Shown here: positions 591 to 32,234 of the stretch, piece after piece
How the letters are laid out: each line of letters opens with the position of its first letter
How positions within the stretch are numbered: position 1 is the first letter of the stretch
Assembly (NCBI GenBank): GCA_904063045.1
Contig: CAJFCJ010000072.1
Span: forward strand, 71,544-114,055
Direction of reading: 5' to 3'
Source: Dimorphilus gyrociliatus
Taxonomy: Eukaryota > Animalia > Annelida
Length of the DNA: 42,512 bases
Made by a program: the position numbers and the translations under genes
The notes under the pieces: model-generated
The model's input: the letters and a program-made list of their open reading frames with translations, nothing else
Databases searched by the model: none
What the model was told of the DNA's origin: nothing

Positions 591-666
<76 letters not shown>

Positions 667-1431
667 ATATATATTTAACAATATAATTAAATATATTAGT
701 ACCCAAGGTTTAAAATATCCCATATCTAAAATATATAGAAATGTTTAAGAAGGAAAAAGATGGTCAGCTAGTTTTAGCTAGCTGCTTCTGATTATATATA
801 TGTGTGTGTATATGTGCAGTGGTCATCAGAAACTTTGGCACTATCTGTCCATAGCATTTTTTGTCAAATTGAACCCAAAAATGTATCTTCCATAAATAAT
901 TATATATTTAAATACTGAGAAACTATTTTAATCAAAAGTCAATAATCGCTCCTTGGAAAATAACCTACATTCCTTATCTAAATGCAGATTTTATCAATAT
1001 CAGAGTTCTTTTCCAAAAAATTTTCTTTAATTGAGGCTGGAATCCATTGTATACTGGATCCTTCATGATATGCCATACACTTTCAATTGATGACATATCT
1101 GAAGCGTAGGGTATGCAAATTAGAATATTGAGTCCTGTTCTTTCAAAAAACAAGCAATTCAACACTTTTGCCCTATGAAAAGCTGCCTAATCTTGTTGGA
1201 AGAGATAACTTGAAAGTAGTTTCTAAAGTTGAATTGTTGATTTTTCATATTAAGCAGATCAGAGATTACAAACATTGTTTCAAAAATTATGAAGAATAGC
1301 AACTATTATTTTTCGTACAAAAAGAGGGATTATAGGGAGAAAAAAGTCAATAAATCCAGGATTAAAGGGTTAAATATACACAAAAGAAAAATGATACATC
1401 CTATGCCAAAGGGTTTGATGACCATTGTATA

Positions 1432-1479
<48 letters not shown>

Positions 1480-4265: not shown

Positions 4266-4611
4266 TGTTTTTTGAGTATTTGAAAAAGAAAGCAGTTAAA
4301 TAGACATTAAAAATAAATTTGTTGTTTATAGTACCAATTATTTCATGTCCATTTATGTAATTAGATAGATTTTTATGGTAGCTAATATCATTATTATTGC
4401 TAATAAAAAAACAATCAGTTCATTTTTCTTTCTATTCTATCCTTAAATAGTCCTACTCACTTATACCTAATTATTCTTCAGATGAACAAAATGTCTTTAA
4501 AATCTAACTTGAGAGTTGGAGTTAAAACTTCAAATTGAAGACTTCCATTATCATAGTAAATGCTCTCTGATTTCATTTAGGTAATTAGACAGACATTTTA
4601 TAGTTTTATAT

Positions 4612-6283: not shown

Positions 6284-7222
6284 TGTACTTTGTTGTATTG
6301 TAATTGTAGGAATTTCTGGTTCGTCACAACTGTAATCGTCCTTTCCAATCATTTACCAACTTGCCAAAGTACTGGTCCAAATAGAACCTTTAAAGTTCGT
6401 CCACAAATAGTCTAACAAAGGCAATTTCGGTAGAAATTGATTAACAAAACACCAGTATTTCGTCCAAAGAATATGTATTGAGTAAAATGAGCTTCTAGTT
6501 CTAAACAAGCTAGTTTAAACAACTAGCTGACGGTTAGAAAACTGAACTATCAACTGTTAATTTCGTAGGGTTTATATACTCTTTTAAGGGTTGATAGTTC
6601 ACAAATTTCAATGTTCACAAAAACAAAAGTAACATTTGAAGACAAAGAAAAGTTCTAAATATGGTCATGTTTTTATTGTTTTCCTCTTCTAAATAATAGT
6701 TGAATTTCGAAGGTTGGAGAGTTGCATAAGATGTAACAATTTTAGTAGGACAAGTCCAACAATCAAGAAAACATGTAGATTGTATATTTGACCGTTTTTA
6801 TATTCTACCTTAATAATGATATTCAATTGATTGAGTTAGTAAATTTAGCATCAGCATATAAGGAGGAAGTATATCTGATTAATGCATGTTAAAAAGAACA
6901 GTATTGTGTATACAATACTGTTGAATAGTGAATATAATCTAACCTTAGAATTTAAGCATAATTGATAATTAATTGAACTAGTTTTAGTTCGAAATCATAA
7001 ATTTATGGATTAATAAATTGTAATATTAATGCTAGGTTGCAAATAGCAAATATTCTTTATATAATTCAATAGGTTTTATTACTGCATAATGTGTATGCAC
7101 TGCCCTATGCGAAACTAGGTCACTACTGCTTATCTTTATCAGTGCTATCTGCATAGTACAATACTGGTTCAATACTACTTCTCTATTGTAGAATATAGCT
7201 GACGAATGTATGTGTACAAACA
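6284..7222 (-). repeat. 3' LTR of copy A (939 bp, TG...CA)
   Basis: Inverted match to 21794-22732; abuts the PPT at 7223-7234. Confidence 0.95.
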
Positions 7223-7232
7223 TCCCACTCCT

Positions 7233-10200
7233 TTAAGACCTTGCTTCCATGAAAGGTCTAGGACTTGTGACAATTATGTTATCACCACTTTTTCTGAACA
7301 TAGGATAATTTTGCAGTTCTATTTCTTCTGATTCAGCTGTTGGAGCTGAAGGTAATCTTTTTGTTTTTGTCAGTAGTTTAGACAGTCTGGTAAATTGAAC
7401 TCTTTTCAGTTTTTTCTTCCAAATAAAGTAGATGAAGAATCCAATTCCAATCAAGAGTATAATTGGCAGAAGTGTGTCTATTAGTATTTTGAAAGGTTTT
7501 CTTATCCATGAAGAAAATAGATGTTGTGTTGGTGACAAGGCTGCATCAATTCCTAAATCATTTGCAAAGTTAATATGCTCTCTATGCTTAGTCAAAGTAT
7601 CCTGTATGTATTCCAAAACTTGTTGTATCTGATAATGTTTCCTGCCCACATCTTCTTTTATACCTAGTTGTAATAATTCTGTGAGTCTGACAACTTCTAG
7701 TTTTGGTTCTTCAATTTGACTGTTGATTTTCATTCTGATTGATTGTGCTGCTGCTGTTTGGAACCTGCACCCTTTCCTTGTATAATAGATAAATGTCTTC
7801 TTGCCAGAATGTATGGCATATTGATTTTGTTCTGCATCCAAAGGATTTTTCTTGATCTTGAAGAGATGCTGAGTTTGGTCACATGTACCATATCTTATGT
7901 CTTCTTTTGTGATGTGGTAAGCATGATGAAGTATTGGATCAATTGAGAATAGGAGATCTTTATATTTGATCAGAAATTCTTTTGAACATAATCCATTTTT
8001 TGTTATAATTGTTGTGTCACAAACTACTTGAACAGTTTTTAATTCTGTACATGTATTGAGGGTTGTTAGATCTCCTAACCATGTACTATGGGTTCCATGT
8101 TTAGATCCAAGTATTGTTGGTAGTTGAGGTGATAGTGGTGTAAGTAGGGCTATCATCTTGTTTCTCATGATAAATTCTTTGCATAAAAGTTGTGAAACTT
8201 GTTTAAAAACTGTTTTTAAATTTTGAAAATTTTTGTCAATATTGTTTAGTAGTGCAGCTGTTCTTATAGCATCTTTTATATTTATTTGGTGTGATTCTGG
8301 AATCTCTATGTTTTCTAATTGTTTCCTCTTCCATTTGTGATTTATTGGTTTTCTTTGTAAAAGTGTATATTTGCCATTTTCTGTATGAATTTGAAATTGT
8401 GTATCTTTTGGGCTTTGATACCAAATGTTCATGTTTGGGAGTGGGTTGAAAGTAACTGGTTTTTTTTCCAATTCAAAATCTTGTGATCTGACTAGTCTGG
8501 CAGGTTTTAGCTTTGTTGTTTTCAGCATTTTTAGTATGTATTTGTTGTGAATATCCCAGATGTCTGGAGAAATAATTTCTTTGACAAACCAAGTCCTCAC
8601 TAATGGTGTTGCATGATTTTTTATCAGCATATGGTAGGTTTTGTCACCATCTCTATACCAATCATTATATGTTAAAATATCTTGTATTTCTGTGACATTG
8701 GCCTTTCTTAGTGATGATTTCTTTCCAATATATTTCTCCAATCTATTAACTTCTTTATTTGAAATGATCTTGTATTTTGTATCCTCTATTATTTTATTGT
8801 CAGCATAATTAGAATTTGTAAGATCAGTTCTAAGTAAGTCATATTCTTTCTGGGGTACCAATACTCTGGTACCAGGACCACCATATCCTTTGATATATCT
8901 GTCTTGGTAAGGTAAATCCATTATTGCATAGTTGGGGCAGGAAAAATATCCTCCAAGTTTTAGACATTCCACATTATGGGAAACTATTTTCCATGGTGAA
9001 ACATGGCCTAGAAGACTTTGGCCTTTTTCTGGATTAAATATAATGATTGAATCCAAAGTTCTACAAAATTTTTGTTTAATAGAACAGTCTTCTAAATATT
9101 CCAAATTTGTGGTTATTTTATCTTGACTTGGATTCCAATAAGCCTTGCCAATTTGAAGGATTGTTGTAAATTCTTCCACCACTGTGGTTCTTGGCCATTT
9201 GTAATTTGGTCCTTTGTTTTCATTATACATAAGAAGTTTGCCTTTTTCAATTAGGTTTTGTCCATTTAAGGTTTTGTGTGTGTATAGCATTGTTCTGCAT
9301 TGTTTTTCACTTAAGGCAAGTGTTTGTTTTTCAATTCTGTGTTTCTTTGCTCCAAAAAAGTAATGAGTGTAGAAATTGATTCTTCTTTTCACTAAACACT
9401 TGACAGCTTGAATTGCCAAATTGTCAGCTTTAATTTCATAGATGTTAGCTACAATTTTGATCATTTGTTTAGTTTCAAAGGTACATACTGGTTCATCTGC
9501 TAAATCAAATGATTGGTGTACTTGTTGTCCTTGACAAAACTGTACTGATGGTAGCATTCTTACAGTTATGTTTGCTTTTGTTATGGATACATTTGCTTGG
9601 ACCAAGTTTAAACAGCATATTGCTAACAGTGTATAAATTATTGATCCTCTGATAGGAAGCATTCCACCATTTGTTTGGTGTTTCCTTACTGTCACTGTGT
9701 TAACTGTTATAGGTTGTTTGTTAGCTAGTCTTAGTCTACTAGCATGATAGAATTTTCTTTTATCTGCCAATATTTGTAATTCATACAAACATTTTGTAGT
9801 ATCTGTAGCAGTTACAAGATATGGTCCACTCCATTTGCTTGTATTTATTCTGTTCATTCCTTGACCAATGTTTTCATTTCTTATGTGTACCCAATCACCA
9901 ATTTTGTAAGTTGGAGGTTTTCTTGTAATAGCTCTATTAACTCTATCTCTATATTCCTTCTTTTTTAGAACAGATTTGCAAAGTGCTGTTGCTCTAATTT
10001 CTTCAAGTTCATGTTTTCTATCAAATAAGAATTTTGTTGTTGGTTCTAATCTTGGAACTTCCATTAACAGGTCTAAAACATTTCTATTCTTCAATCCAAA
10101 TAATATTTCATGTGGGGTTTTGCCAGTGCTTCCAACTGGAATTTGATTTAAACATGTCTGAATTAATGGTAACTGTCTTGTCCAATCTGTTAATTGTTCC

Positions 10201-10865
10201 ATAACTACATGTTTATGTAGTGCTCTACGAATTTCCAAATTCTTTCTTTCTACCATTCCATTACTTTGGCTATGGAATGCTGTTGTTTTAATTTTTCGTA
10301 TTCCCATTGATGTCACCATTTCTGTAAAGATTTCCCCAAGAAAATTCCTTCCTTGATCTGTGAGAATTTCTTCTGGGATACCAAATATTGGGAAATAGTT
10401 GAAAAACAAATGTTTAGAAATTTCCTCAGCTGTTTGAGTTTTTAGAGGGAATATGTTGGTAAATCTGGACATGTGGTCTATAATGACAAGTATATACTTG
10501 TAAGAATCATGTCCAGTCAGAGGTCCCATTATGTCCATAGCTATTCTTTGCATTGGTAAAGTTGGGTGAGGTGTTTCAACCAACAGATGTTTGTTGCCTG
10601 GTGCTCTTAATTGCTCACAAAATTCACAACTCTTTATGTGATCTTTAATTGTTTTCTTTAGCTTTGGGTGCCAGAAAGCTTGCTCCAAAGTGTGAATTGT
10701 TATGTCTACACCATAGTGCTCAAATAGTTGATGTTGATGAATTTGTCCAAGTAAGTTGGTTAGAGTTGATAGTGGAATTACAAGTAGTGGTTGACAGCCA
10801 TTTAGATACCATACAAGGTCTTCTTTTACAAACATAGATTCAATAAAGTTTCCATATTCATTCAA
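7233..10865 (-). CDS. Integrase-Env fusion ORF of copy A (Env part 7233-9662)
   Basis: 1210-aa open frame: HHCC zinc finger, IAMDIMGP / ILTDQG / GMVERKN catalytic core, GPY-type C-terminus (KWSGPYLV), then signal peptide MLPIRGSIIYTLLAICCLNLVQA, ectodomain, TM helix TLLPIILLIGIGFFIYFIW and a basic tail. Confidence 0.9.
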   Translation of the reverse strand: MNEYGNFIESMFVKEDLVWYLNGCQPLLVIPLSTLTNLLGQIHQHQLFEHYGVDITIHTLEQAFWHPKLKKTIKDHIKSCEFCEQLRAPGNKHLLVETPHPTLPMQRIAMDIMGPLTGHDSYKYILVIIDHMSRFTNIFPLKTQTAEEISKHLFFNYFPIFGIPEEILTDQGRNFLGEIFTEMVTSMGIRKIKTTAFHSQSNGMVERKNLEIRRALHKHVVMEQLTDWTRQLPLIQTCLNQIPVGSTGKTPHEILFGLKNRNVLDLLMEVPRLEPTTKFLFDRKHELEEIRATALCKSVLKKKEYRDRVNRAITRKPPTYKIGDWVHIRNENIGQGMNRINTSKWSGPYLVTATDTTKCLYELQILADKRKFYHASRLRLANKQPITVNTVTVRKHQTNGGMLPIRGSIIYTLLAICCLNLVQANVSITKANITVRMLPSVQFCQGQQVHQSFDLADEPVCTFETKQMIKIVANIYEIKADNLAIQAVKCLVKRRINFYTHYFFGAKKHRIEKQTLALSEKQCRTMLYTHKTLNGQNLIEKGKLLMYNENKGPNYKWPRTTVVEEFTTILQIGKAYWNPSQDKITTNLEYLEDCSIKQKFCRTLDSIIIFNPEKGQSLLGHVSPWKIVSHNVECLKLGGYFSCPNYAIMDLPYQDRYIKGYGGPGTRVLVPQKEYDLLRTDLTNSNYADNKIIEDTKYKIISNKEVNRLEKYIGKKSSLRKANVTEIQDILTYNDWYRDGDKTYHMLIKNHATPLVRTWFVKEIISPDIWDIHNKYILKMLKTTKLKPARLVRSQDFELEKKPVTFNPLPNMNIWYQSPKDTQFQIHTENGKYTLLQRKPINHKWKRKQLENIEIPESHQINIKDAIRTAALLNNIDKNFQNLKTVFKQVSQLLCKEFIMRNKMIALLTPLSPQLPTILGSKHGTHSTWLGDLTTLNTCTELKTVQVVCDTTIITKNGLCSKEFLIKYKDLLFSIDPILHHAYHITKEDIRYGTCDQTQHLFKIKKNPLDAEQNQYAIHSGKKTFIYYTRKGCRFQTAAAQSIRMKINSQIEEPKLEVVRLTELLQLGIKEDVGRKHYQIQQVLEYIQDTLTKHREHINFANDLGIDAALSPTQHLFSSWIRKPFKILIDTLLPIILLIGIGFFIYFIWKKKLKRVQFTRLSKLLTKTKRLPSAPTAESEEIELQNYPMFRKSGDNIIVTSPRPFMEARS

Positions 10866-12787
10866 AGACCCATTATCAATGTTTCTCCTTCCAATTTGTC
10901 TACAACTTTCATTAGTGGAGTATCTAATACTTGTTCTCTATAGAAGTTTATTTCAACTGGTGTGATTTTTAGTTTCATAATCTGGGCTTGGATTTCAGTT
11001 ATGTCTTCATCATAATCATTGTCTAGATTGTCATCTAAACAATCATCTAATTCTTCTAAGTCCTCTGTATCAATATAAAAGCATTTAAGCATATCCTTTC
11101 TTTCTGCTAATTGGGGAACTGTATTGCCATTTTGTTTTTCTTCATTTAATCTTTCCTTAAGTAAATTACGAAAATCAATTACTTCATCAGTTTCACCAAT
11201 TCTTGATATCCAGTCTGCTCTATTAGTTCTTCCTGGTATGTATATTATTTCAAAATCCATATCCATAAGTGCCATCACCCATTTAACAGTACTTGTATTC
11301 AGTTTGTTTTGTACAAATGTTTGTACCAAATTTTGGTGATCAGTGTAGAGAAAAAATTTCTTATACTGTAGATAATGGGAGAATTTTTGTACTGCCCAAT
11401 ATACTGCAAAAGCCTCTTTTTGATAAGCTGCATATCTTAGTTGTGTATTGATTAGGAGCTTGGAAGCAAAAGAAATTGGTTTTCTTATTTTCTTTCCATC
11501 TTCTTCCCATTCTTGTTCTAGAACTGCACCAACTGCATAATTAGAAGCATCTGTTGTTAAATAGAATGATTTAGTAAAGTCTGGCAGTTGAAGGATTGGG
11601 GGCTCTGTCATTGCATTCCTTAGTGTTTCATAAGCTTCCTCTGCTTTTTTTGTCCATTTCAGTTTTTCTGTCTTTTGGTGTACTTTTAATAATTCTCTCA
11701 AAGGTTTTGTGATTTTTGCAAAATCTTTAAACAAATCTTCTATAATAACCACAAAATGCACAAAACTCAACAGAGTATTTGCAAACATAGGTAATTTGGC
11801 ATCTTTTATTTTTGAATCTTTTCAGGATCAGTTTCAATACATTCTGTGTAATTCTATGACCAAGGAATTGAACTGATTCTTGTAAGAATGCACATTTGCT
11901 CAGTTTAATTCTGAAGTCTTTTTCCTTGATTCTTTCCATAAGTTTCTGTAGAGCTACAAAGTGTCTTCCAATGTTTTGGTAAAAACTATAATATCATCCA
12001 TATAATTAATGCAGAAGTTTTCCAATCCATTAATAACAAAATTTGCCATGATATAGCTGAAGTGTGAAGGTGCATTTGCCAAACCAAATGGCATGCGGTT
12101 GAATTCAAATAAACCAAATGGTGTAATAAAAGCAGTTTTCTCCTTATCTTCTTCTTTAATTGGAATATGATGAAATGCACTTGTTAAATCCAATATAGAA
12201 AAATATTTGTGGCCTCCTCCAAGCTTATCAAATAAATCTTCCTGATGTGGGATTGGATAACAATTCTTTTTTGATTGCTTGTTAAGTTTTCTGTAATCCA
12301 CACACATTCTTAATGTTCCTTCTTTCTTTTTCACAAAAACAATGGGTGAAGCCCATTGGCTTTTGCTTGCTCTAATTAGACCATTTTCCAATAATCCATT
12401 TAATTGATCCCTGCATTCCTGCTGTTTGTTGGTGGCAATCTGTATGGTCTTTGTTGAAAGGCTTTATATCTTCCAATAATTCAATTGCCATTGGTGGAAC
12501 ATCTGGTGAACCAATGTCATTTTTTGTAGCAATAATATCTTCATAATTCTTTATCATTTCTTTTAATTCTTCTCTGTTCTTGTCAATATTTTTTGGACAC
12601 ATGTAAATAATTGTCAATTTCTATGTATTTGAATTAATATTGTGTACATTTTGATTAGACAAATGTTCAAATTCAATACTTTCCAACTGTAATTCTTCTA
12701 TTTCAGGAGTTACTGGATTTTTCTTTGTTCTTTTTCACTTTGATAGTTATTCCATCTTCTAATTCTATGTATTTGGTTTCATTTCCA
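10862..12787 (-). pseudogene. pol: RT-RNase H of copy A with several single-base frameshifts
   Basis: WASPIVFV, LRMCVDYRKLN, YFSILDLTSAFHHI, MPFGLANAP, YMDD, LTTDASNYAVGAVL, LYTDH, ADWISR. Breaks fall in homopolymer runs. Confidence 0.9.
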
Positions 12788-13739
12788 NNNNNNNNNNNNN
12801 NNNNNNNNNNNNNNNNNNNNNNNNNNNNNNNNNNNNNNNNNNNNNNNNNNNNNNNNNNNNNNNNNNNNNNNNNNNNNNNNNNNNNNNNNNNNNNNNNNNN
12901 NNNNNNNNNNNNNNNNNNNNNNNNNNNNNNNNNNNNNNNNNNNNNNNNNNNNNNNNNNNNNNNNNNNNNNNNNNNNNNNNNNNNNNNNNNNNNNNNNNNN
13001 NNNNNNNNNNNNNNNNNNNNNNNNNNNNNNNNNNNNNNNNNNNNNNNNNNNNNNNNNNNNNNNNNNNNNNNNNNNNNNNNNNNNNNNNNNNNNNNNNNNN
13101 NNNNNNNNNNNNNNNNNNNNNNNNNNNNNNNNNNNNNNNNNNNNNNNNNNNNNNNNNNNNNNNNNNNNNNNNNNNNNNNNNNNNNNNNNNNNNNNNNNNN
13201 NNNNNNNNNNNNNNNNNNNNNNNNNNNNNNNNNNNNNNNNNNNNNNNNNNNNNNNNNNNNNNNNNNNNNNNNNNNNNNNNNNNNNNNNNNNNNNNNNNNN
13301 NNNNNNNNNNNNNNNNNNNNNNNNNNNNNNNNNNNNNNNNNNNNNNNNNNNNNNNNNNNNNNNNNNNNNNNNNNNNNNNNNNNNNNNNNNNNNNNNNNNN
13401 NNNNNNNNNNNNNNNNNNNNNNNNNNNNNNNNNNNNNNNNNNNNNNNNNNNNNNNNNNNNNNNNNNNNNNNNNNNNNNNNNNNNNNNNNNNNNNNNNNNN
13501 NNNNNNNNNNNNNNNNNNNNNNNNNNNNNNNNNNNNNNNNNNNNNNNNNNNNNNNNNNNNNNNNNNNNNNNNNNNNNNNNNNNNNNNNNNNNNNNNNNNN
13601 NNNNNNNNNNNNNNNNNNNNNNNNNNNNNNNNNNNNNNNNNNNNNNNNNNNNNNNNNNNNNNNNNNNNNNNNNNNNNNNNNNNNNNNNNNNNNNNNNNNN
13701 NNNNNNNNNNNNNNNNNNNNNNNNNNNNNNNNNNNNNNN
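12788..13739. other. Assembly gap (952 N)
   Basis: Directly visible. Confidence 1.
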
Positions 13740-14086
13740 ATGTTACTTTGTTTTTGTGAACATTGAAATTTGTGAACTATCAACCCTTAAAAGAGTATAA
13801 AACCCTACGAAATTAACAGTTGATAGTTCAGTTTTCTAACCGTCAGCTAGTTGTTTAAACTAGCTTGTTTAGAACTAGAAGCTCATTTTTCAAATACATT
13901 TCTTTGGACGAAATACTGGTGTTTTGTTAATCAATTTCTACCGAAATTGCCTTTGTTAGACTATTTGTGGACGAACTTTAAAGGTTCTATTTGGACCAGT
14001 ACTTTGGCAAGTTGGTAAATGATTGGAAAGGACGATTACAGTTGTGACGAACAGAAATTCCTACAATTACAATACAACAAAGTACA
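13740..14086 (+). repeat. Visible 347-bp 3' portion of the 5' LTR of copy B
   Basis: Matches the distal part of 21794-22732 and ends in ...caacaaagtaca. Confidence 0.93.
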
Positions 14087-14089
14087 AAT

Positions 14090-15070
14090 ATGGCGCAGTC
14101 GACAGCCCACAATGCTACTTCAATGAATGTTATTTTGGTTTATGAGAATGACAAAGCCAGAGCCAAGGAAGTAGATGAGTATCTTTCAAAATTAATGAAT
14201 TAATGTTGAGAATTAAAAGTAGTGGAGCCAAAGTTGATGGTAATAGCTTTTTAAAGTACCATTTGATGACTGGGGCAGCTACAATTCCTGAAGGTATGGT
14301 TAATCCTGATCCTACTCAACCAAATTCAGTTATGATGGCATTCAAGAAAATGCTTTGGAAAAGACAATTGCAAGTCTTCTAATTGATGCTAATGAGAAAC
14401 CTAATACTACTTTGCTGAGACCCTATTCTGGTAGCAAAGATACTTGGGCCTTTAAGAGGAACTTTCAAACAGCTTGTGAATTAAACCTTTGGGATACAGA
14501 AGAGAAAAGAGTTCGAATGCTGAGAAAATACACTACTGGAAGAGCCAGAGATGTTATTGAAAGTTTACCCTCCATGGCAACTGAAAATGAAATTTGGGAT
14601 GCATTGGATGAAGAATTTAATCCAGTTCCTATGGCTTACAAAAAAAAATTGATAGCTTGAGACAGTTCAATGATGAAACTGTCCAAAGTTTTGTTAGAAG
14701 AAGTAAAGAACTTGTGGAAAAATTCCTACATTCAATACTACTGAAATGGCTTGTGTTACAGAAAAAGTTAGAGAGCTCCAACTTTTAAGTGTATTCAGGA
14801 TAGGTCTTAAAGGAAAAATTGTTAATCATGTGGAAAAAGATGGAAAAATTAAGTCAGTTAATCAGTATATTAAATTGGCAAAAAGAGCAGAAATATTTTT
14901 TGATAATGCAAGAAAAGAAAGCGAAAATGAATTCAAACAGTACAAAAGGAGATTTGACAACAATCAGAGTAACTCAAAATCAAAATGAACATACATTTAA
15001 ACCTTTTTCTCAAAATAGATTTCAACAACAAGAAATGGAAATGCAGGAAATAATGAAAAGGCAGCTTTAA
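14090..15070 (+). pseudogene. gag: gag, frameshifted in this assembly
   Basis: Capsid-like segments RPYSGSKDTWAFKRNFQTACELNLW..GRARDVI..IWDALDEEF and FRIGLKGKIVNHV..QYIKLAKRAE. No zinc knuckle seen. Confidence 0.75.
14091..14105 (+). promoter_or_regulatory. Primer binding site, tRNA-Ser type
   Basis: TGGCGCAGTCGACAG follows the LTR end after a 4-nt spacer. It is complementary to a CCA-ended tRNA-Ser 3' end (..CGACUGCGCCA), the primer class used by the 17.6/297/ZAM/Idefix errantivirus lineage. Confidence 0.8.
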
Positions 15071-15181
15071 CAGACTAATACATGTTGGACCTGATGAACC
15101 TAATGAAACTGAAATTTCTAAAGGAAGAATGGCAATATTTAATCTCAAAGAAGAGAAATCACACATTTTAAGTGTACTTCT

Positions 15182-18100
15182 TTGGTGAAAGGCAGAAAAG
15201 ATTTCCAATTTCGAATGAAAAATCATAATGGAAGAGAGGTTATTGCTTTATGTGATTCAGGAGCACTTTTGTCATTTATTACAGAAAAAGAAATCAGGTT
15301 AATGGATTCTAAATTCATCAAGAAAGAAACTACTGGCTTACCCAATCATCACTTCAGCAGAGGGAAATGCTTTAAAGACAAAAGGAAAACAAAACTGAAT
15401 ATTCAATTTAATGGAAGAATTATGGAACAAGAATTCTTTATTATGGAAAAACTAGATATGGCTATAATACTTGGTTGTGATTTCTTAGAAATGCTGGAGC
15501 TCTTATTGATTTTGCAACAAAAAAGTTTCTCTTCCATTCTTTATCAGAAAAGGACAACCAGTTAGAAAGTTTTGCAATATAACGAAAATCACCAAACAAA
15601 ATTTGGAAAACAAGGCAGTGTAAAAAAAGTAACTGTTGGAATGATGGGACAGTATTTTGAAGATTCTGACACTCCATCTGAAGTTTTTGATACTCCATCT
15701 GAAGTTTCAGATAGTGTGGACTCAGAAATGGAAGTTACTGATCCAGATACTGGCTATGATACAAGCAACACTCATGGTTCAAGCATAGTTTATGAGGGAT
15801 TCAATGGTTTTGATTCAAATAGCAATTATGGCACAGATGAAAGTTCCAGTACTTCTGAAATTATGATACAGAAACAAGTATTGAATCAGATCACAGCCCA
15901 GACTCAGATTTGGATATAATCAATGGTACAAGCTCATCTGAAGATGAATTAGTGATTCAACTGATTCTGATCATGGTTCAATGATTGTTATAGACTCATC
16001 TGAGGAAGAGCTTGATAACATAACTGAGCCTGATAATGATTCAATGATTGTTATAGACTCATCTGAAGAAGAGACCAGTAACACAATTGAGTCTGACAAT
16101 GATTCCATAATGGTTATAGACTCATCTGATGAAGAGACTGGAAATATACCTAAGTCTGACAATGACTCAGTTATTCTCATAAATTCTCTGAAGAAGAAAC
16201 TGAAGACTTGGCTATGGAAATGGAAATGAAACCACAATACATAGAATTAGAAGATGGAATAACTATCAAAGTGGCAAAAGAACAAAGAAAAATCCAGTAA
16301 CTCCTGAAATAGAAGAATTACAGTTGGAAAGTATTGAATTTGAACATTTGTCTAATCAAAATGTACACATATTAATTCAAATACACTAGAAATTGACAAT
16401 TATTTACATGTGTCCAAAAATAATCTTGACAAGAACAGAGAAGAATTAAAAGAAATGATAAAGAATTATGAAGATATTATTGCTACAAATCAGAATGACA
16501 TTGGTTCACCAGATGTTCCACCAATGGCAATTGAATTATTGGAAGATATAAAGCCTTTCAACAAAGACCATACAGATTGCCACCCAACAAACAGCAGGAA
16601 TGCAGGGATCAATTAAATGGATTATTGGAAAATGGTCTAATTAGAGCAAGCAAAAGCCAATGGGCTTCACCCATTGTTTTTGTGAAAAAGAAAGAAGGAA
16701 CATTAAGAATGTGTGTGGATTACAGAAAACTTAACAAGCAATCAAAAAAGAATTGTTATCCAATCCCACATCAGGAAGATTTATTTGATAAGCTTGGAGG
16801 AGGCCACAAATATTTTTCTATATTGGATTTAACAAGTGCATTTCATCATATTCCAATTAAAGAAGAAGATAAGGAGAAAACTGCTTTTATTACACCATTT
16901 GGTTTATTTGAATTCAACCGCATGCCATTTGGTTTGGGCAAATGCACCTTCACACTTCAGCTATATCATGGCAAATTTTGTTATTAATGGATTGGAAAAC
17001 TTCTGCATTAATTATATGGATGATATTATAGTTTTTACCAAAACATTGGAAGAACACTTTGTAGCTCTACAGAAACTTATGGAAAGAATCAAGGAAAAAG
17101 ACTTCAGAATTAAACTGAGCAAATGTGCATTCTTACAAGAATCAGTTCAATTCCTTGGTCATAGAATTACACAGAATGGTATTGAAACTGATCCTGAAAA
17201 GATTCAGAAAATAAAAGATGCCAAATTACCTATGTTTGCAAATACTCTGTTGAGTTTTGTGGCATTTTGTGGTTATTATAGAAGATTTGTTAAAGATTTT
17301 GCAAAAATCACAAAACCTTTGAGAGAATTATTAAAAGTACACCCAAAGACAGAAAAACTGAAATGGACAAAAAAAGCAGAGGAAGCTTATGAAACACTAA
17401 GGAATGCAATGACAGAGCCCCAATCCTTCAACTGCCAGACTTTACTAAATCATTCTATTTAACAACAGATGCTTCTAATTATGCAGTTGGTGCAGTTCTA
17501 GAACAAGAATGGGAAGAAGATGGAAAGAAAATAAGAAAACCAATTTCTTTTGCTTCCAAGCTCCTAATCAATACACAACTAAGATATGCAGCTTATCAAA
17601 AGAGGCTTTTGCAGTATATTGGGCAGTACAAAATTCTCCCATTATCTACAGTATAAGAATTTTTTCTCTACACTGATCACCAAAATTTGGTACAAACATT
17701 TGTACAAAACAAACTGAATACAAGTACTGTTAAATGGGTGATGGCACTTATGGATATGGATTTTGAAATAATATACATACCAGGAAGAACTAATAGAGCA
17801 GACTGGATATCAAGAATTGGTGAAACTGATGAAGTAATTGATTTTCGTAATTTACTTAAGGAAAGATTAAATGAAGAAAAACAAAATGGCAATACAGTTC
17901 CCCAATTAGCAGAAAGAAAGGATATGCTTAAATGCTTTTATATTGATACAGAGGACTTAGAAGAATTAGATGATTGTTTAGATGACAATCTAGACAATGA
18001 TTATGATGAAGACATAACTGAAATCCAAGCCCAGATTATGAAACTAAAAATCACACCAGTTGAAATAAACTTCTATAGAGAACAAGTATTAGATACTCCA

Positions 18101-19353
18101 CTAATGAAAGTTGTAGACAAATTGGAAGGAGAAAACATTGATAATGGGTCTTTGAATGAATATGGAAACTTTATTGAATCTATGTTTGTAAAAGAAGACC
18201 TTGTATGGTATCTAAATGGCTGTCAACCACTACTTGTAATTCCACTATCAACTCTAACCAACTTACTTGGACAAATTCATCAACATCAACTATTTGAGCA
18301 CTATGGTGTAGACATAACAATTCACACTTTGGAGCAAGCTTTCTGGCACCCAAAGCTAAAGAAAACAATTAAAGATCACATAAAGAGTTGTGAATTTTGT
18401 GAGCAATTAAGAGCACCAGGCAACAAACATCTGTTGGTTGAAACACCTCACCCAACTTTACCAATGCAAAGAATAGCTATGGACATAATGGGACCTCTGA
18501 CTGGACATGATTCTTACAAGTATATACTTGTCATTATAGACCACATGTCCAGATTTACCAACATATTCCCTCTAAAAACTCAAACAGCTGAGGAAATTTC
18601 TAAACATTTGTTTTTCAACTATTTCCCAATATTTGGTATCCCAGAAGAAATTCTCACAGATCAAGGAAGGAATTTTCTTGGGGAAATCTTTACAGAAATG
18701 GTGACATCAATGGAATACGAAAAATTAAAACAACAGCATTCCATAGCCAAAGTAATGGAATGGTAGAAAGAAAGAATTTGGAAATTCGTAGAGCACTACA
18801 TAAACATGTAGTTATGGAACAATTAACAGATTGGACAAGACAGTTACCATTAATTCAGACATGTTTAAATCAAATTCCAGTTGGAAGCACTGGCAAAACC
18901 CCACATGAAATATTATTTGGATTGAAGAATAGAAATGTTTTAGACCTGTTAATGGAAGTTCCAAGATTAGAACCAACAACAAAATTCTTATTTGATAGAA
19001 AACATGAACTTGAAGAAATTAGAGCAACAGCACTTTGCAAATCTGTTCTAAAAAAGAAGGAATATAGAGATAGAGTTAATAAAGCTATTACAAGAAAACC
19101 TCCAACTTACAAAATTGGTGATTGGGTACACATAAGAAATGAAAACATTGGTCAAGGAATGAACAGAATAAATACAAGCAAATGGAGTGGACCATATCTT
19201 GTAACTGCTACAGATACTACAAAATGTTTGTATGAATTACAAATATTGGCAGATAAAAGAAAATTCTATCATGCTAGTAGACTAAGACTAGCTAACAAAC
19301 AACCTATAACAGTTAACACAGTGACAGTAGGGAAACACCAAACAAATGGTGGA
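15182..19353 (+). pseudogene. pol: pol of copy B (aspartic protease, acidic spacer, RT, RNase H, integrase) with single-base frameshifts
   Basis: Protease LCDSGA..IILGCDFL; RT YMDD; RH TDAS/TDH; IN HHCC and DDE. Confidence 0.9.
15914..16207 (+). repeat. 63-nt (21-codon) tandem repeat, about 5 units, in the PR-RT spacer
   Basis: Units start at 15978, 16041, 16104 and 16167, plus a degenerate unit at ~15914. They encode (M/I)(I/M)VIDSS(E/D)EE..SDNDS. Confidence 0.92.
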
Positions 19354-21783
19354 ATGCTTCCTATCAGAGGATCAATAATTTATACACTGTTAGCAATATG
19401 CTGTTTAAACTTGGTCCAAGCAAATGTATCCATAACAAAAGCAAACATAACTGTAAGAATGCTACCATCAGTACAGTTTTGTCAAGGACAACAAGTACAC
19501 CAATCATTTGATTTAGCAGATGAACCAGTATGTACCTTTGAAACTAAACAAATGATCAAAATTGTAGCTAACATCTATGAAATTAAAGCTGACAATTTGG
19601 CAATTCAAGCTGTCAAGTGTTTAGTGAAAAGAAGAATCAATTTCTACACTCATTACTTTTTTGGAGCAAAGAAACACAGAATTGAAAAACAAACACTTGC
19701 CTTAAGTGAAAAACAATGCAGAACAATGCTATACACACACAAAACCTTAAATGGACAAAACCTAATTGAAAAAGGCAAACTTCTTATGTATAATGAAAAC
19801 AAAGGACCAAATTACAAATGGCCAAGAACCACAGTGGTGGAAGAATTTACAACAATCCTTCAAATTGGCAAGGCTTATTGGAATCCAAGTCAAGATAAAA
19901 TAACCACAAATTTGGAATATTTAGAAGACTGTTCTATTAAACAAAAATTTTGTAGAACTTTGGATTCAATCATTATATTTAATCCAGAAAAAGGCCAAAG
20001 TCTTCTAGGCCATGTTTCACCATGGAAAATAGTTTCCCATAATGTGGAATGTGTAAAACTTGGAGGATATTTTTCCTGCCCCAACTATGCAATAATGGAT
20101 TTACCTTACCAAGACAGATATATCAAAGGATATGGTGGTCCTGGTACCAGAGTATTGGTACCCCAGAAAGAATATGACTTACTTAGAACTGATCTTACAA
20201 ATTCTAATTATGCTGACAATAAAATAATAGAGGATACAAAATACAAGATCATTTCAAATAAAGAAGTTAATAGATTGGAGAAATATATTGGAAAGAAATC
20301 ATCACTAAGAAAGGCCAATGTCACAGAAATACAAGATATTTTAACATATAATGATTGGTATAGAGATGGTGACAAAACCTACCATATGCTGATAAAAAAT
20401 CATGCAACACCATTAGTGAGGACTTGGTTTGTCAAAGAAATTATTTCTCCAGACATCTGGGATATTCACAACAAATACATACTAAAAATGCTGAAAACAA
20501 CAAAGCTAAAACCTGCCAGACCAGTAAGATCACAAGATTTTGAATTGGACAAAAAACCAGTTACTTTCAACCCACTCCCAAACATGAACATTTGGTATCA
20601 AAGCCCAAAAGATACACAATTTCAAATTCATACAGAAAATGGCAAATATACACTTTTACAAAGAAAACCAATAAATCACAAATGGAAGAGGAAACAATTA
20701 GAAAACATAGAGATTCCAGAATCCCACCAAATAAATATAAAAGATGCTATAAGAACAGCTGCACTACTAAACAATATTGACAAAAATTTTCAAAATTTAC
20801 AAACAGTTTTTAAACAAGTTTCACAACTTTTATGCAAAGAATTTATCATGAGAAACAAGATGATAGCCCTACTTACACCACTATCACCTCAACTACCAAC
20901 AATACTTGGATCTAAACATGGAACCCATAGTACATGGTTAGGAGATCTAACAACCCTCAATACATGTACAGAATTAAAAACTGTTCAAGTAGTTTGTGAC
21001 ACAACAATTATAACAAAAAATGGATTATGTTCAAAAGAATTTCTGATCAAATATAAAGATCTCCTATTCTCAATTGATCCAATACTTCATCATGCTTACC
21101 ACATCACAAAAGAAGACATAAGATATGGTACATGTGACCAAACTCAGCATCTCTTCAAGATCAAGAAAAATCCTTTGGATGCAGAACAAAATCAATATGC
21201 CATACATTCTGGCAAGAAGACATTTATCTATTATACAAGGAAAGGATGCAGGTTCCAAACAGCAGCAGCACAATCAATCAGAATGAAAATCAACAGTCAA
21301 ATTGAAGAACCAAAACTAGAAGTTGTCAGACTCACAGAATTATTACAACTAGGTATAAAAGAAGATGTGGGCAAGAAACATTATCAGATACAACAAGTTT
21401 TGGAATACATACAGGATACTTTGACTAAGCATAGAGAGCATATTAACTTTGCAAATGATTTAGGAATTGATGCAGCCTTGTCACCAACACAACATCTATT
21501 TTCTTCATGGATAAGAAAACCTTTCAAAATACTAATAGACACACTTCTGCCAATTATACTCTTGATTGGAATTGGATTCTTCATCTACTTTATTTGGAAG
21601 AAAAAACTGAAAAGAGTTCAATTTACCAGACTGTCTAAACTACTGACAAAAACAAAAAGATTACCTTCAGCTCCAACAGCTGAATCAGAAGAAATAGAAC
21701 TGCAAAATTATCCTATGTTCAGAAAAAGTGGTGATAACATAATTGTCACAAGTCCTAGACCTTTCGTGGAAGCAAGGTCTTAA
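19354..21783 (+). CDS. env: Env-like class III fusion glycoprotein of copy B (809 aa from the internal Met; in frame with integrase)
   Basis: Signal peptide, N-glycosylation sequons (NVS, NIT, NVT), fusion-domain-like C..FFGAK..SEKQC, long central helix ending LLCKEF, GDL..LNTC..V..CSKE motif, C-terminal TM helix. The class III assignment rests on motif recall. Confidence 0.8.
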   Translation: MLPIRGSIIYTLLAICCLNLVQANVSITKANITVRMLPSVQFCQGQQVHQSFDLADEPVCTFETKQMIKIVANIYEIKADNLAIQAVKCLVKRRINFYTHYFFGAKKHRIEKQTLALSEKQCRTMLYTHKTLNGQNLIEKGKLLMYNENKGPNYKWPRTTVVEEFTTILQIGKAYWNPSQDKITTNLEYLEDCSIKQKFCRTLDSIIIFNPEKGQSLLGHVSPWKIVSHNVECVKLGGYFSCPNYAIMDLPYQDRYIKGYGGPGTRVLVPQKEYDLLRTDLTNSNYADNKIIEDTKYKIISNKEVNRLEKYIGKKSSLRKANVTEIQDILTYNDWYRDGDKTYHMLIKNHATPLVRTWFVKEIISPDIWDIHNKYILKMLKTTKLKPARPVRSQDFELDKKPVTFNPLPNMNIWYQSPKDTQFQIHTENGKYTLLQRKPINHKWKRKQLENIEIPESHQINIKDAIRTAALLNNIDKNFQNLQTVFKQVSQLLCKEFIMRNKMIALLTPLSPQLPTILGSKHGTHSTWLGDLTTLNTCTELKTVQVVCDTTIITKNGLCSKEFLIKYKDLLFSIDPILHHAYHITKEDIRYGTCDQTQHLFKIKKNPLDAEQNQYAIHSGKKTFIYYTRKGCRFQTAAAQSIRMKINSQIEEPKLEVVRLTELLQLGIKEDVGKKHYQIQQVLEYIQDTLTKHREHINFANDLGIDAALSPTQHLFSSWIRKPFKILIDTLLPIILLIGIGFFIYFIWKKKLKRVQFTRLSKLLTKTKRLPSAPTAESEEIELQNYPMFRKSGDNIIVTSPRPFVEARS

Positions 21784-21793
21784 AGGAGTGGGA
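21782..21793 (+). promoter_or_regulatory. Polypurine tract
   Basis: AAAGGAGTGGGA lies immediately before the TG of the 3' LTR and overlaps the env stop codon. Confidence 0.85.
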
Positions 21794-22732
21794 TGTTTGT
21801 ACACATACATTCGTCAGCTATATTCTACAATAGAGAAGTAGTATTGAACCAGTATTGTACTATGCAGATAGCACTGATAAAGATAAGCAGTAGTGACCTA
21901 GTTTCGCATAGGGCAGTGCATACACATTATGCAGTAATAAAACCTATTGAATTATATAAAGAATATTTGCTATTTGCAACCTAGCATTAATATTACAATT
22001 TATTAATCCATAAATTTATGATTTCGAACTAAAACTAGTTCAATTAATTATCAATTATGCTTAAATTCTAAGGTTAGATTATATTCACTATTCAACAGTA
22101 TTGTATACACAATACTGTTCTTTTTAACATGCATTAATCAGATATACTTCCTCCTTATATGCTGATGCTAAATTTACTAACTCAATCAATTGAATATCAT
22201 TATTAAGGTAGAATATAAAAACGGTCAAATATACAATCTACATGTTTTCTTGATTGTTGGACTTGTCCTACTAAAATTGTTACATCTTATGCAACTCTCC
22301 AACCTGAGAAATTCAACTATTATTTAGAAGAGGAAAACAATAAAAACATGACCATATTTAGAACTTTTCTTTGTCTTCAAATGTTACTTTTGTTTTTGTG
22401 AACATTGAAATTTGTGAACTATCAACCCTTAAAAGAGTATATAAACCCTACGAAATTAACAGTTGATAGTTCAGTTTTCTAACCGTCAGCTAGTTGTTTA
22501 AACTAGCTTGTTTAGAACTAGAAGCTCATTTTACTCAATACATATTCTTTGGACGAAATACTGGTGTTTTGTTAATCAATTTCTACCGAAATTGCCTTTG
22601 TTAGACTATTTGTGGACGAACTTTAAAGGTTCTATTTGGACCAGTACTTTGGCAAGTTGGTAAATGATTGGAAAGGACGATTACAGTTGTGACGAACCAG
22701 AAATTCCTACAATTACAATACAACAAAGTACA
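21794..22732 (+). repeat. 3' LTR of copy B (939 bp, TG...CA)
   Basis: TGTTTGTACA...CAAAGTACA; differs from the copy A LTR by only a few bases. Confidence 0.95.
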
Positions 22733-23096: not shown

Positions 23097-24098
23097 CTAA
23101 CCCTGAACAGAATCTGTAGAAATTAAATAAAGATAGTGCAGATTAAAACCGACTATTTTATTGAACTTACCTATTGTAACTTGATTTACAATGGGATTAT
23201 AATGGTAATCTTTGTACATTAAGCAGTGGATCTGGTTAATGTTGGCATCATGCATATTTGTCATTTCCACAATTATGTATTTATGAAACCATTTACCATA
23301 TACAATGATTTTCTTGGTAAATAATTGCGAAAATGCTTCTATCTCAATAGAACCCCCCCAACCTAAACTGTAATACATGGTTTTTTTATAATTATCCATA
23401 TTCTGATACTCCCATTTGATCCTTTTTTTCAATGTTACATTTCCAAATAAACTTTTATTCCCCAGATTTCCACATAGCAAATGTCCCACAATAAATTTTC
23501 TTAAAACATTTGGACATGTAAACCTTGTCTGAAAGTAAAGTAGAGAGCTAAACAGGCAATTTCCATCCCCTGGTACAATGACATATGTTAAATGTTGACT
23601 GTTGGTGATATTATAAACCCTGATTTGGTGACCTTTTCTTTCTTTCAGCTGTTCTCTATTATTATTATTATTGTTGTTGTTGTTGTTGGTAGCTGGTGCT
23701 GATAACAGACATTTGAAATTTATAATTTTGAATGCCTGTTGCTTTGTAATTGTAACTCCTGCTGCTAACCCTGATTTATTGTGATTTGTTAGTTGATTGT
23801 TGTCATCATCAAATACATCATCATTATCATTGTGTATTAGCTTTTGTAAGTTGAATAATATAACTTTCTGCTGGTATTTACACCCTAATTTTTTAAGTTG
23901 AACATGACACTGTGTATTTTGTATTATAGATTGAAAATCTTTTTGTATATGGTTTTTAGTCATTTTCAATCTATAATTTAATTTAAGTTTTGTAAACTCT
24001 ATAACACAATTAATGGAATGAAGTTTGATTGTAGGTTGAAGAAAGGATTTTTTCCCTAAAATATCTTTATCAATATTAATTTTGTTTCTCATTTTCAT
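23097..24098 (-). CDS. Intronless ORF with a C-terminal OTU-family cysteine protease (deubiquitinase-like) domain
   Basis: VPGDGNCLFSSL (Asp/Cys), LRK, WGGSIEIEAFSQL and HYNP (His) are the OTU signature blocks. The frame stays open upstream of the annotated start to about 24245. Confidence 0.8.
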   Translation of the reverse strand: MKMRNKINIDKDILGKKSFLQPTIKLHSINCVIEFTKLKLNYRLKMTKNHIQKDFQSIIQNTQCHVQLKKLGCKYQQKVILFNLQKLIHNDNDDVFDDDNNQLTNHNKSGLAAGVTITKQQAFKIINFKCLLSAPATNNNNNNNNNNREQLKERKGHQIRVYNITNSQHLTYVIVPGDGNCLFSSLLYFQTRFTCPNVLRKFIVGHLLCGNLGNKSLFGNVTLKKRIKWEYQNMDNYKKTMYYSLGWGGSIEIEAFSQLFTKKIIVYGKWFHKYIIVEMTNMHDANINQIHCLMYKDYHYNPIVNQVTIGKFNKIVGFNLHYLYLISTDSVQG

Positions 24099-24628
24099 TC
24101 TTCTTGTTATGATTTGATTGGGAATGTTGAATTGTTTATCTGCTTCAGTAAGGTTTATACATAGTGTTCTGTTGAATTGTTTCCTTTTGGTAACAAACTT
24201 ATTAGGATATTTTTCACCAAACTTTTCATAAATATCTTGAAGTAATTTTTTTCAACTTGAAAATGTTTTATAAAATCCACCTCCTCTAACTTGAATAGTA
24301 AACTTGTTTTTGTATGTTGTACAATTTGTAAACAATTATCCATCTGTTGAAGAATCCTTGATTTATTTACTGGTTTTTTTTTTCAATTACCCTCTGTTAT
24401 TGAGAAATCTTGACTATTGAAAAATATCAAATGGTCTGACTTGCAATCATTTGGATTTTCTTTGCAAATTTGAATTATTGGTAATGGTTTATTAGGCTGA
24501 GTTGTATTGTTGTCAGTTATAGACAAACTTTCAATTTTGTTGTGTAAATTATTATTGCAAGTGATATTTCCAGTAAAGCTGATGTTAATATATGGACATT
24601 TCCATTTCTTCCAATAATTGGAAAATAT

Positions 24629-25363
24629 TCAAAGTGAGCTATAGATTTTAATTAATAAATGTATGTGTTCCTCTCTTGGTGGCTTTTGGCTTTTACCCTT
24701 ACCAAATTTATAGGCTTCAGCTAATTTTAATATGTGATATATATTATAGAAATAATCAGCCAAATCAATATGTCTTTTACATTCTTGGATATTTAAATTA
24801 TTTAATTGAAATAATTTATAAACATTTCCACCACCTAATATCTTATTGGCAACTTTAATTCCTTCTTCCATGTTGATGTTTCTAATTCTTGTCTCCAAAC
24901 ATAATTTGTGTAAGAATTTTTGATTTCTCTTTAAAATGTCAATTAATTTTCTGAACATACAATATCTTAGATGAATAGCCTTATTTGTTCTTGGTTCAGC
25001 TTCATAACCCATTTTATTAACAGCTTTAATGATATGTATAAGGCCACTTTGGTATAATTTAATTGCAATATTATTATTATAGACTGAAGGATTAGGAGGT
25101 AAATATTTAATTAATATACCTCCGAAACCTCCACCAATTCCATAAAGAATAGGAAAAGTTATACCATGGCTTTTTGGTATTTTAAATAAATGTAACTTGG
25201 TTGTTCCATCATCATCACCACCACCACCATAAGCTGCTATTCTGACTTTATATATTTTGTTAGCTAATAAAGTTTTTATAACAATTAAAGTTGATACCAG
25301 TTGATTTGAATTTGATAATAGGTAGTTTGAAGTTTTCAATGTGAATTGTCTCTGCTTCGGCAA
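24629..25363 (-). CDS. Intronless 244-aa ORF of unknown function, possible TBP-like fold
   Basis: Long open frame in very AT-rich DNA. The segment GFGGILIKY..NIAIKLYQSGLIHIIKA..YCMFRKLIDIL resembles the TBP repeat pattern (weak, by eye). Confidence 0.5.
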   Translation of the reverse strand: MPKQRQFTLKTSNYLLSNSNQLVSTLIVIKTLLANKIYKVRIAAYGGGGDDDGTTKLHLFKIPKSHGITFPILYGIGGGFGGILIKYLPPNPSVYNNNIAIKLYQSGLIHIIKAVNKMGYEAEPRTNKAIHLRYCMFRKLIDILKRNQKFLHKLCLETRIRNINMEEGIKVANKILGGGNVYKLFQLNNLNIQECKRHIDLADYFYNIYHILKLAEAYKFGKGKSQKPPREEHIHLLIKIYSSL

Positions 25364-25589
25364 ATTCCCAAACCAATGTTGTTAAATCTGTTAGAAATTA
25401 TTGAAATCAGTATTAACAATGCTGTACATAAATAAAAATAAAGCAGAAGAAAATCTGATAAGAAATAGCTGGCTAACCCTAAATAATTTAGAGATATATG
25501 TATGTTGGCCATGTTAACACTATGTGTAGAAAATTTGGATATTAACATAGCTAAGGAAGTAGTTGATAGATGTTAATTATGTTTGAAAT

Positions 25590-31398: not shown

Positions 31399-32234
31399 GT
31401 TTCAAAACATGAACATGTTTAGTTAAATAACCAACATTTCAACTTTAGTTGATATTTTCCTTTTTGTTCATTTCCAATATAATAACAATGATGATGACAA
31501 TTGCAGATCAACTGTTTAGTATGTATAGTGTATTTGATATTAAATCAGCTAGTAGTCAATCATTTCAGGTAGAGGAAAAGTACAAGCATACACACTTTGA
31601 ATAGTGCAAACTGTAGAAAGACATTTTCACAGGATTTTCCATGTCGGTATTAGTTGTTTTTCTTCTTTTTCCCAAGAAAAAATCTACTTGGAAAAGATTT
31701 TCAGGTGAAAAAGCGATAATATTATCATTTTTACGAGGATGTTGACTTAAATACTCTGAAATACTTTCAACAAGATACAAGACAAATGACAAAAGAAAAA
31801 AGTAAAATTGCCTGCTTCACTCGTAAGTTTGCCAAGCTCTAAGCTTTTGATTTCCAATTTGGCAATTGGTAATGACTAGAAGGTCACTAGTACTTTTTCA
31901 TCATTGAAAAAGTATATTCTTTGAAGATTAATATTATAAAGTATTGATTGATTGATTGAATGAATGAATGAATGAATGAATATATGTTGATATCATACCG
32001 TCAATAAATTGAAACGATACATAAGCTGGATTTGTCAATCCTAATTGCACTTTGTATCCAATTTCAATATCTTCTTTTGATAAGTTTACTAGAATAGCTG
32101 ATTCTCTGCTGTCTGACAGAGTATAGGCTATTGAGTGAGGTGTTTCCCTCTCGACTACAGTGGCAGGAGCTGACATTTCAGATGGAATTATTATCTTAAA
32201 TATGTCAGTATTTACAGTATATACCAAAGTAGGA

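What the first reader, a model, noticed from the sequence alone, without database searches (positions are those of the whole stretch)
15914..16207. Tandem SUMO-interacting-motif (SIM)-like array inside the retroelement Pol polyprotein
Seen: about five 21-aa repeats (IVIDSSEEE, IVIDSSEEE, MVIDSSDEE, plus degenerate flanking units) in a ~700-bp acidic Ser-rich spacer between protease and RT, which gypsy elements usually lack. Known: a hydrophobic V/I core followed by Ser and an acidic stretch is the canonical phospho-SIM (PML, DAXX, PIAS), and clustered SIMs bind poly-SUMO (RNF4). SUMO is also central to TE silencing (TRIM28; Su(var)2-10 in the piRNA pathway). Inference: the element may release a poly-SIM peptide that decoys or targets SUMO-dependent silencing. 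I know of no such module in Ty3/gypsy Pol.
Basis: partly seen in the sequence, partly recalled or inferred. Interest (0 to 1): 0.78.

Follow-up and report, generated by a model that had tools for sequence, protein, structure and literature searches.

The report
SUMO-grip repeats in a worm retrotransposon
An envelope-carrying jumping gene, likely the Dingle family of a miniature marine worm, has an acidic linker with about four repeats that match known SUMO-binding motifs and vary in number between copies; they would likely let its particle grip SUMO-tagged host proteins, but binding is untested.

Summary
The repeat is real: a 63-bp unit, 4.2 copies, at 15933-16197. It encodes three intact SIM-like motifs (MIVIDSSEEE twice, IMVIDSSDEE), a fourth cut by a frame break, and one degenerate unit. 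It sits in a roughly 210-codon acidic spacer between protease and RT of a young Ty3/gypsy element with a herpes-gB-type env, very probably Dingle / Dgyr_errantivirus_1, which is already published. As assembled, the array is out of frame with pol. Short-read contigs differ at 8 of 9 breaks, and a named paralogue holds the last unit in one ORF with RT, so the breaks are likely assembly errors. Variants with one or two fewer units keep the frame. The motif half is invariant at codon positions 1+2 (0/20, against 11/22 in the linker), but pN/pS shows no purifying selection, so DNA homogenisation is not excluded. No array was found outside this family. SUMO binding is untested. Best reading (0.45): a family-specific, expandable SUMO-binding handle carried in the particle. 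Main rival (0.35): a neutral acidic linker. The silencing-decoy idea is unsupported but not excluded.

The parts
15933..16197 (+). 63-bp tandem array, 4.2 copies, 21-codon units
   Evidence: pairwise unit identity 49-51 of 63
15981..16010 (+). SIM-like motif 1 (MIVI core, DSSEEE tract)
16044..16073 (+). SIM-like motif 2 (MIVI core, DSSEEE tract)
16107..16136 (+). SIM-like motif 3 (IMVI core, DSSDEE tract)
16170..16198 (+). SIM-like motif 4 (VILI core), broken in the window near 16185; unbroken in paralogue P0002 (VILVNSSEEE)
15910..15945 (+). degenerate upstream unit (LDII core, Ser/acid tract)
15659..16282 (+). acidic Ser-rich spacer (206 codons, 49% D/E/S) between protease and RT; holds a second, 21-bp repeat at 15658-15713
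13740..14086 (+). visible 3' part of the 5' LTR (the rest lies in the N gap 12788-13739)
14091..14102 (+). primer-binding site; same 12 bases as listed for Dgyr_errantivirus_1; overlapped by the first gag ATG (14090)
14090..15142 (+). gag region (inferred from position; broken in the window; no Pfam hit for the one piece scanned)
15143..15560 (+). aspartic protease (DSG motif near 15254)
   Evidence: Pfam RVP 2.4e-4
16562..17750 (+). reverse transcriptase and RNase H (approximate limits)
   Evidence: Pfam RVT_1, RT_RNaseH on the 99.4% identical second copy
18240..19350 (+). integrase (approximate limits), running in frame into env
   Evidence: Pfam Integrase_H2C2, rve on the second copy
19354..21783 (+). 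env, class III fusogen type (herpes gB / rhabdovirus G like)
21783..22732 (+). polypurine tract and 3' LTR (about 940 bp, TG...CA)
6284..12787 (-). second copy of the element, 99.4% identical, cut by the N gap just downstream of the array, so its array is not visible

Best explanation
The 63-bp repeats are a variable-copy array in the acidic protease-RT spacer of an env-carrying Ty3/gypsy element, likely translated as part of its polyprotein, and each unit is predicted to be a SUMO-interacting motif that would give the particle a multivalent grip on SUMO-modified host proteins. Shown: the array, its motif match, its place, its copy-number variants. Inferred: (1) the spacer is translated as a disordered segment and packaged with Gag-Pol; (2) CK2 phosphorylates the serines; (3) two to four weak SIMs bind SUMO chains or multi-SUMOylated complexes by avidity; (4) since retroelement proteases act inside particles (established knowledge, recalled), the segment would act after entry or at integration, most likely docking the pre-integration complex on SUMO-rich nuclear sites such as closed chromatin or the pore. 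Step 4 is the weakest.
For: Motif: 4 of 4 cores have at least three V/I/L and end in Ile; 3 of 3 intact units are followed by D-S-S-acid with CK2 spacing, as in the review's definition and the IE2 and PML SIMs. Coding: X3, X4 and X5 (two studies) differ in length from the window at 8 of 9 break places; all ten pieces between breaks are stop-free; P0002 carries the last unit, the rest of the spacer and RT in one protein. Length variants: 5 of 7 joints with a known insert length keep the phase, including the three deepest (depths 3057, 601, 191); two remove exactly two units and one unit. Constraint: across three units codon positions 1+2 vary at 0 of 20 sites in the motif and 11 of 22 in the linker (Fisher p 0.0002; p 0.003 allowing any 10-codon window); the 3 motif changes are all third-position (M/I, I/M, E/D). 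Context: viruses commonly carry SIMs, HIV integrase SIMs are needed for nuclear localisation, and TEs of the likely host concentrate in closed-chromatin islands (figure legend).
Against: pN is not below pS in the motif (pN 0.08, pS 0.06; linker 0.31 and 0.39), so DNA-level homogenisation of the motif half can also explain its conservation; only three units could be compared. Only 2 of 4 cores meet the strict V/I/L-only pattern. SIMs arise easily by chance in acidic disordered regions (1-2% in shuffles). No relative outside the family shows the array: 1 of 105 proteins (P0002 only) and 0 of 6 loci match. The closest other relative, P0001 (79% RT identity), has only a short acidic spacer, though it may be a spliced gene model. 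Copies with fewer units exist at appreciable depth, so four units are not required. 2 of 7 joints break the phase (depths 146 and 4). Clustering in closed chromatin may reflect selection rather than targeting.
Confidence: 0.45

Rival explanations
1. Neutral or charge-only linker: a tolerant acidic junction (like the Ty3 J segment) that grew by slippage or template switching; the SIM likeness is incidental and the motif half is kept alike by repeated DNA exchange between units.
For: Linker codons vary evenly at all three positions and motif pN/pS is not below 1; a second, unrelated 21-bp in-frame repeat lies in the same spacer; spacer length varies among subfamilies; Ty3 has a J segment here; no array in relatives.
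Against: All 3 variable motif sites are third positions, about 1 in 27 under uniform homogenisation (my arithmetic); core changes in unit 4 and P0002 stay hydrophobic; no unusual RNA structure over the array (z -0.89) to explain nucleotide conservation.
Confidence: 0.33
2. One reading: the spacer is released as a poly-SIM peptide that soaks up SUMO chains and weakens SUMO-dependent transposon silencing.
For: SUMOylation links piRNA recognition to heterochromatin in Drosophila (bioRxiv 10.1101/2021.07.27.453956, abstract). If gag and pol are one ORF (1 of 2 long contigs fits; the supplement names the protein GAG-POL), the spacer would be made at Gag levels.
Against: No effector domain next to the SIMs (no Pfam hit); cleavage sites not shown; processing inside particles would keep the peptide away from the producer nucleus (recalled); SUMO-dependent silencing is not shown in this host (0 mentions of SUMO or PIWI in the genome paper).
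Confidence: 0.12
3. The hydrophobic four-residue core is kept for another ligand: repeated cleavage sites for the element's own aspartic protease, or a beta-strand motif for some other basic host surface.
For: Retroviral-type proteases cut within short hydrophobic stretches (recalled), and a PR/RT boundary must lie in this region; protein-level constraint on the motif fits any ligand.
Against: One cut site would suffice; the acidic CK2-type tract is as conserved as the core; LIR and SPOP patterns do not match the repeat units.
Confidence: 0.1

Closest known systems
Dingle (PMC7854359) / Annelida_Polychaeta_Dgyr_errantivirus_1 (PMC13524379, supplement 1)
   Same: Ty3/gypsy element with herpes-gB-type env; identical 12-base PBS four bases after the LTR; LTR-end to LTR-end 8646 bp here against 8684 listed; a Dimorphilus gyrociliatus gene model shares the spacer-RT region.
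   Different: Neither main text mentions SUMO; the eLife text also has no 'acidic' or 'linker'. The eLife paper reports a chromodomain in that element, which Pfam did not find here. Sequences were not compared directly.
HCMV IE2 SIM and PML SIM (PMC5646861)
   Same: Hydrophobic core followed by Ser and an acidic run; both bind C. elegans SUMO at the canonical groove (108 and 31 uM).
   Different: Those are single, tested motifs in nuclear regulators; here the motif is tandem, untested and inside a retroelement polyprotein.
RNF4-type clustered SIMs (PMC12751080)
   Same: About four closely spaced SIMs in a disordered region, suited to avidity binding.
   Different: No RING or other effector domain, so it is not a SUMO-targeted ubiquitin ligase.
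Ty3 J segment (PR-J-RT-IN; PMC5371799)
   Same: Extra segment between protease and RT of a Ty3/gypsy polyprotein.
   Different: Longer here, strongly acidic and repetitive; that J is about 10 kDa and dispensable is recalled, not read here.
HIV-1 integrase SIMs (PMC10144533)
   Same: SIMs within a Pol-derived protein, tied to nuclear steps.
   Different: Isolated motifs within a folded enzyme, not a dedicated variable-copy array.

Membership tests
Parallel phospho-type SIM | Four-residue hydrophobic core with at least three V/I/L | tested here: met
   4 of 4 units (MIVI, MIVI, IMVI, VILI); only 2 of 4 meet the strict V/I/L-only pattern; definition
Parallel phospho-type SIM | Fourth core residue L/I/V (HS1 pocket) | tested here: met
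   Ile in 4 of 4 units, Val in P0002
Parallel phospho-type SIM | Acidic and phosphorylatable tract after the core, CK2 spacing | tested here: met
   3 of 3 intact units; the fourth is broken in the window and intact in P0002
Parallel phospho-type SIM | Lies in an accessible disordered region | tested here: inconclusive
   49% D/E/S and no Pfam family; judged from composition only
Parallel phospho-type SIM | Binds the SUMO beta2-alpha1 groove, core-dependently | not testable with these tools
   needs a binding experiment
SUMO-targeted ubiquitin ligase (RNF4 type) | RING or other E3 domain joined to the SIMs | tested here: not met
   no such Pfam hit in the element pieces scanned
LIR/AIM (Atg8-binding motif) | Aromatic residue, two spacers, L/I/V | tested here: not met
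   no aromatic residue in the repeat units; one loose match downstream at 16285-16368 (pattern recalled)
Ty3/gypsy LTR retrotransposon | Order protease-RT-RNase H-integrase | tested here: met
Ty3/gypsy LTR retrotransposon | LTRs (TG...CA), PBS, polypurine tract | tested here: met
   5' LTR cut by the gap; target-site duplication not visible
Dingle / Dgyr_errantivirus_1 | env of herpes gB / class III type | tested here: met
   Foldseek best hits HSV-1 gB 1.8e-6 and VSV G 2.5e-6 from a partly confident model (mean pLDDT 55); weak profile hits to the same class
Dingle / Dgyr_errantivirus_1 | PBS sequence and element span as tabulated | tested here: met
   12 of 12 bases; 8646 against 8684 bp; the same PBS string occurs 26 times in that table, so it is not unique to the family
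Dingle / Dgyr_errantivirus_1 | Chromodomain after integrase (reported in PMC13524379) | tested here: inconclusive
   no Pfam chromodomain at E 0.01; the paper used structure prediction
Dingle / Dgyr_errantivirus_1 | Sequence identity to the published element | not testable with these tools
   no genome held; the supplement rows seen give coordinates, not sequence

The most novel reading that the evidence does not exclude
An animal LTR retroelement has evolved a dedicated, expandable poly-SIM module, a transposon-encoded SUMO-chain reader that travels in the particle and steers integration to SUMO-rich chromatin or shields the incoming element from SUMO-dependent silencing, with unit number tuned among subfamilies.
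Probability: 0.3. Interest if true: 0.75.

Novelty: new variant of a known kind. Interest (0 to 1): 0.45.

Why it matters
SUMO is central to transposon silencing in animals, and DNA viruses answer it with SIMs, but my five paper searches listed no transposon-encoded SIM array. If the repeats bind SUMO chains, they give a simple peptide-level test of whether retrotransposons read or counter the SUMO system, and a candidate targeting device alongside chromodomains. If they do not, this is an ordinary expanding linker in a known element. On present evidence it is confined to one family.

Tried and rejected
Complex prediction of the repeat piece with a stand-in SUMO: no verdict (score 0.00, controls not folded, peptides and disordered chains untested by the tool); not used either way. 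Homologue search with the repeat piece: 0 of 4771 candidates scored (low complexity). With the protease piece: 0 of 33. PDB sequence search with the repeats: one chance hit, E 1.9. Related loci: none in viral contigs; 6 distant metagenome loci (35-44% identity) without the motif. Env search of 1.84 billion representatives: 11 hits, none longer than 627 aa except P0002, so none reaches a spacer. The protein Atlas gave no answer. No RNA holder was listed, which says nothing on expression. RNA structure of the array: not unusual. No tRNA gene in the window. No earlier findings. Rejected: sequencing artefact for the array (short-read contigs cover it); private to this copy; STUbL; LIR. A loose SIM pattern matched 34 of 95 RT relatives, mostly in a conserved RT stretch, which shows how unspecific loose patterns are; the strict pattern was used instead.

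Full report
Observation. Tandem Repeats Finder gives a 63-bp unit in 4.2 copies at 15933-16197. In one frame it reads three 21-residue units ending MIVIDSSEEE, MIVIDSSEEE and IMVIDSSDEE, then a fourth core, VILI, cut off by a frame break near 16185. A degenerate unit lies just upstream. The three intact motifs are the only strict matches in the six-frame translation of the window. They sit in a 206-codon stretch that is 49% D/E/S with 4 basic residues. A shuffled unit yields such a motif in 1.2% of trials and the shuffled spacer in 1.7%; the duplication makes this one event.

The element. The array lies between an aspartic protease and RT in a Ty3/gypsy element (order PR-RT-RNase H-IN) with a PBS, a polypurine tract and a TG...CA LTR of about 940 bp. 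A second copy, 99.4% identical, faces it across an N gap and is cut just downstream of the array. The env folds in part like class III fusogens (best hits HSV-1 gB and VSV G; mean pLDDT 55). The closest named relative is a Dimorphilus gyrociliatus gene model, P0002. That species' genome paper describes Dingle, its most abundant TE, with a gB-like env (PMC7854359; passages and a supplement search). A 2026 survey lists Dgyr_errantivirus_1 with HSV-type env, 7 copies, the same 12-base PBS and a similar span (PMC13524379; abstract, first parts of sections 5 and 6, sections 14 and 22, passages, supplement rows). The element is therefore very probably known; I could not compare sequences, and its reported chromodomain was not found by Pfam. 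Figures, including the Dingle domain map, could not be seen and may show the spacer.

Is the array coding? In the window it is not in frame with pol: the frame changes nine times between 15143 and 16933. Short-read contigs of runs X3, X4 and X5, from two studies, differ in length from the window at 8 of these 9 places; the ninth lies at the edge of the stretch laid, and 6 rows of that table were not shown. One study may be the source of the window, so it is not fully independent. All ten pieces between breaks are free of stops. P0002 carries the last unit, the rest of the spacer and RT in one protein. The breaks are thus likely long-read consensus errors. Whether gag and pol form one ORF is weakly supported: the net length of one long contig fits, the other does not on the rows shown.

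Variation. Of 10 joints listed, 6 had a known insert length, giving 7 records; 5 of the 7 keep the phase. These include a form two units shorter (depth 601 against about 7100 in X4), a form one unit shorter (depth 191 against 214 in X5; short side only 24 bases) and an 18-codon shorter spacer (depth 3057). The two that break phase have depths 146 and 4. Leaving out whole-unit changes, which keep frame by construction, and the depth-4 record, 3 of 4 keep it, which is weak by itself.

Selection. Across the three intact units, codon positions 1+2 vary at 0 of 20 motif sites and 11 of 22 linker sites (Fisher p 0.0002; 0.003 allowing any window). Third positions do not differ (3 of 10 against 5 of 11). 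Against this, pN is not below pS in the motif (0.08 against 0.06), on very small counts. Protein-level constraint is suggested, not shown; exchange between units could give a similar picture.

Distribution. The strict motif occurs in 1 of 105 fetched proteins (P0002) and 0 of 6 loci. The PR-RT distance is about 468 codons here against 194-349 in 17 of 19 relatives with both motifs; the other two were 41 and 730. P0001 (79% RT identity) shows only a short acidic spacer but may be a spliced model. The searches were limited by low complexity and the lack of close relatives, so absence elsewhere is weakly shown.

Mechanism. The units meet the sequence definition of parallel SIMs with CK2 sites (PMC12751080; passages and sections 16 and 21) and resemble the IE2 and PML SIMs that bind C. 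elegans SUMO (PMC5646861; passages). Repeated SIMs typically give avidity. I commit to a SUMO-binding handle carried in the particle and acting after entry, most likely docking the integration complex at SUMO-rich nuclear sites (0.45). Rivals: neutral acidic linker (0.33), silencing decoy (0.12), protease or other ligand site (0.10). Translation is strongly inferred; phosphorylation, binding, cleavage and role are untested.

What is known. PR-RT inserts are known: Ty3 J (PMC5371799, one passage) and dUTPase (PMC6431247, passage). SIMs in HIV integrase are known (PMC10144533, passages), and a possible SUMO site in errantivirus Gag has been noted (PMC3383448, passage). SUMO in piRNA silencing: abstract of bioRxiv 10.1101/2021.07.27.453956 and the listing. 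Five searches (top 15-20 listings of each, open-access library only) showed no SIM array in a retrotransposon polyprotein; passages of PMC5741268 and PMC6338049 held nothing relevant.

Verdict. Real feature, known element, known motif type, apparently undescribed combination, function untested and so far confined to one family: new variant of a known kind, interest 0.45.

Noticed in passing
window 7233-10937 (-) and 18604-21783 (+): Integrase runs in frame into env in both copies, with an internal signal-peptide-like stretch near 19354; with gag and pol possibly in one frame, the element may encode one Gag-Pol-Env ORF of about 2,560 codons.
   Followed up: partly
window 14087-14108: The first gag ATG overlaps the primer-binding site.
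   Followed up: no
window 6284-22732: Two 99.4% identical copies stand head to head around a 952-base N gap with different 3' flanks; either two insertions or a scaffolding artefact.
   Followed up: partly
window, within ORF 17657-18766 (+): A second acidic stretch lies between RNase H and integrase.
   Followed up: no
window 15658-15713: A 21-bp repeat (2.7 copies) in the same spacer, also a multiple of three.
   Followed up: no
window 33285-37300: A FLYWCH-containing ORF (likely MULE transposase) followed by a 627-bp inverted duplication (34534-35160 / 35522-36148) and shuffled fragments of the same retroelement (integrase end, RT, protease) on the minus strand.
   Followed up: partly
window 32226-32732 and 37754-38095: Partial LTR copies, 96-99% identical to the element's 3' LTR.
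   Followed up: no
window 23097-24251 (-) and 24629-25381 (-): An ORF with an OTU-like protease domain (E 1e-4) and an unassigned 250-codon ORF; possibly a Helentron or virus-like insert.
   Followed up: no
window 343-4295, 29627-31294, 39627-42178: Host-like genes: LDL-receptor class A repeats; chitin-binding, TSP1 and C1q exons; an ABC transporter with long exons.
   Followed up: no
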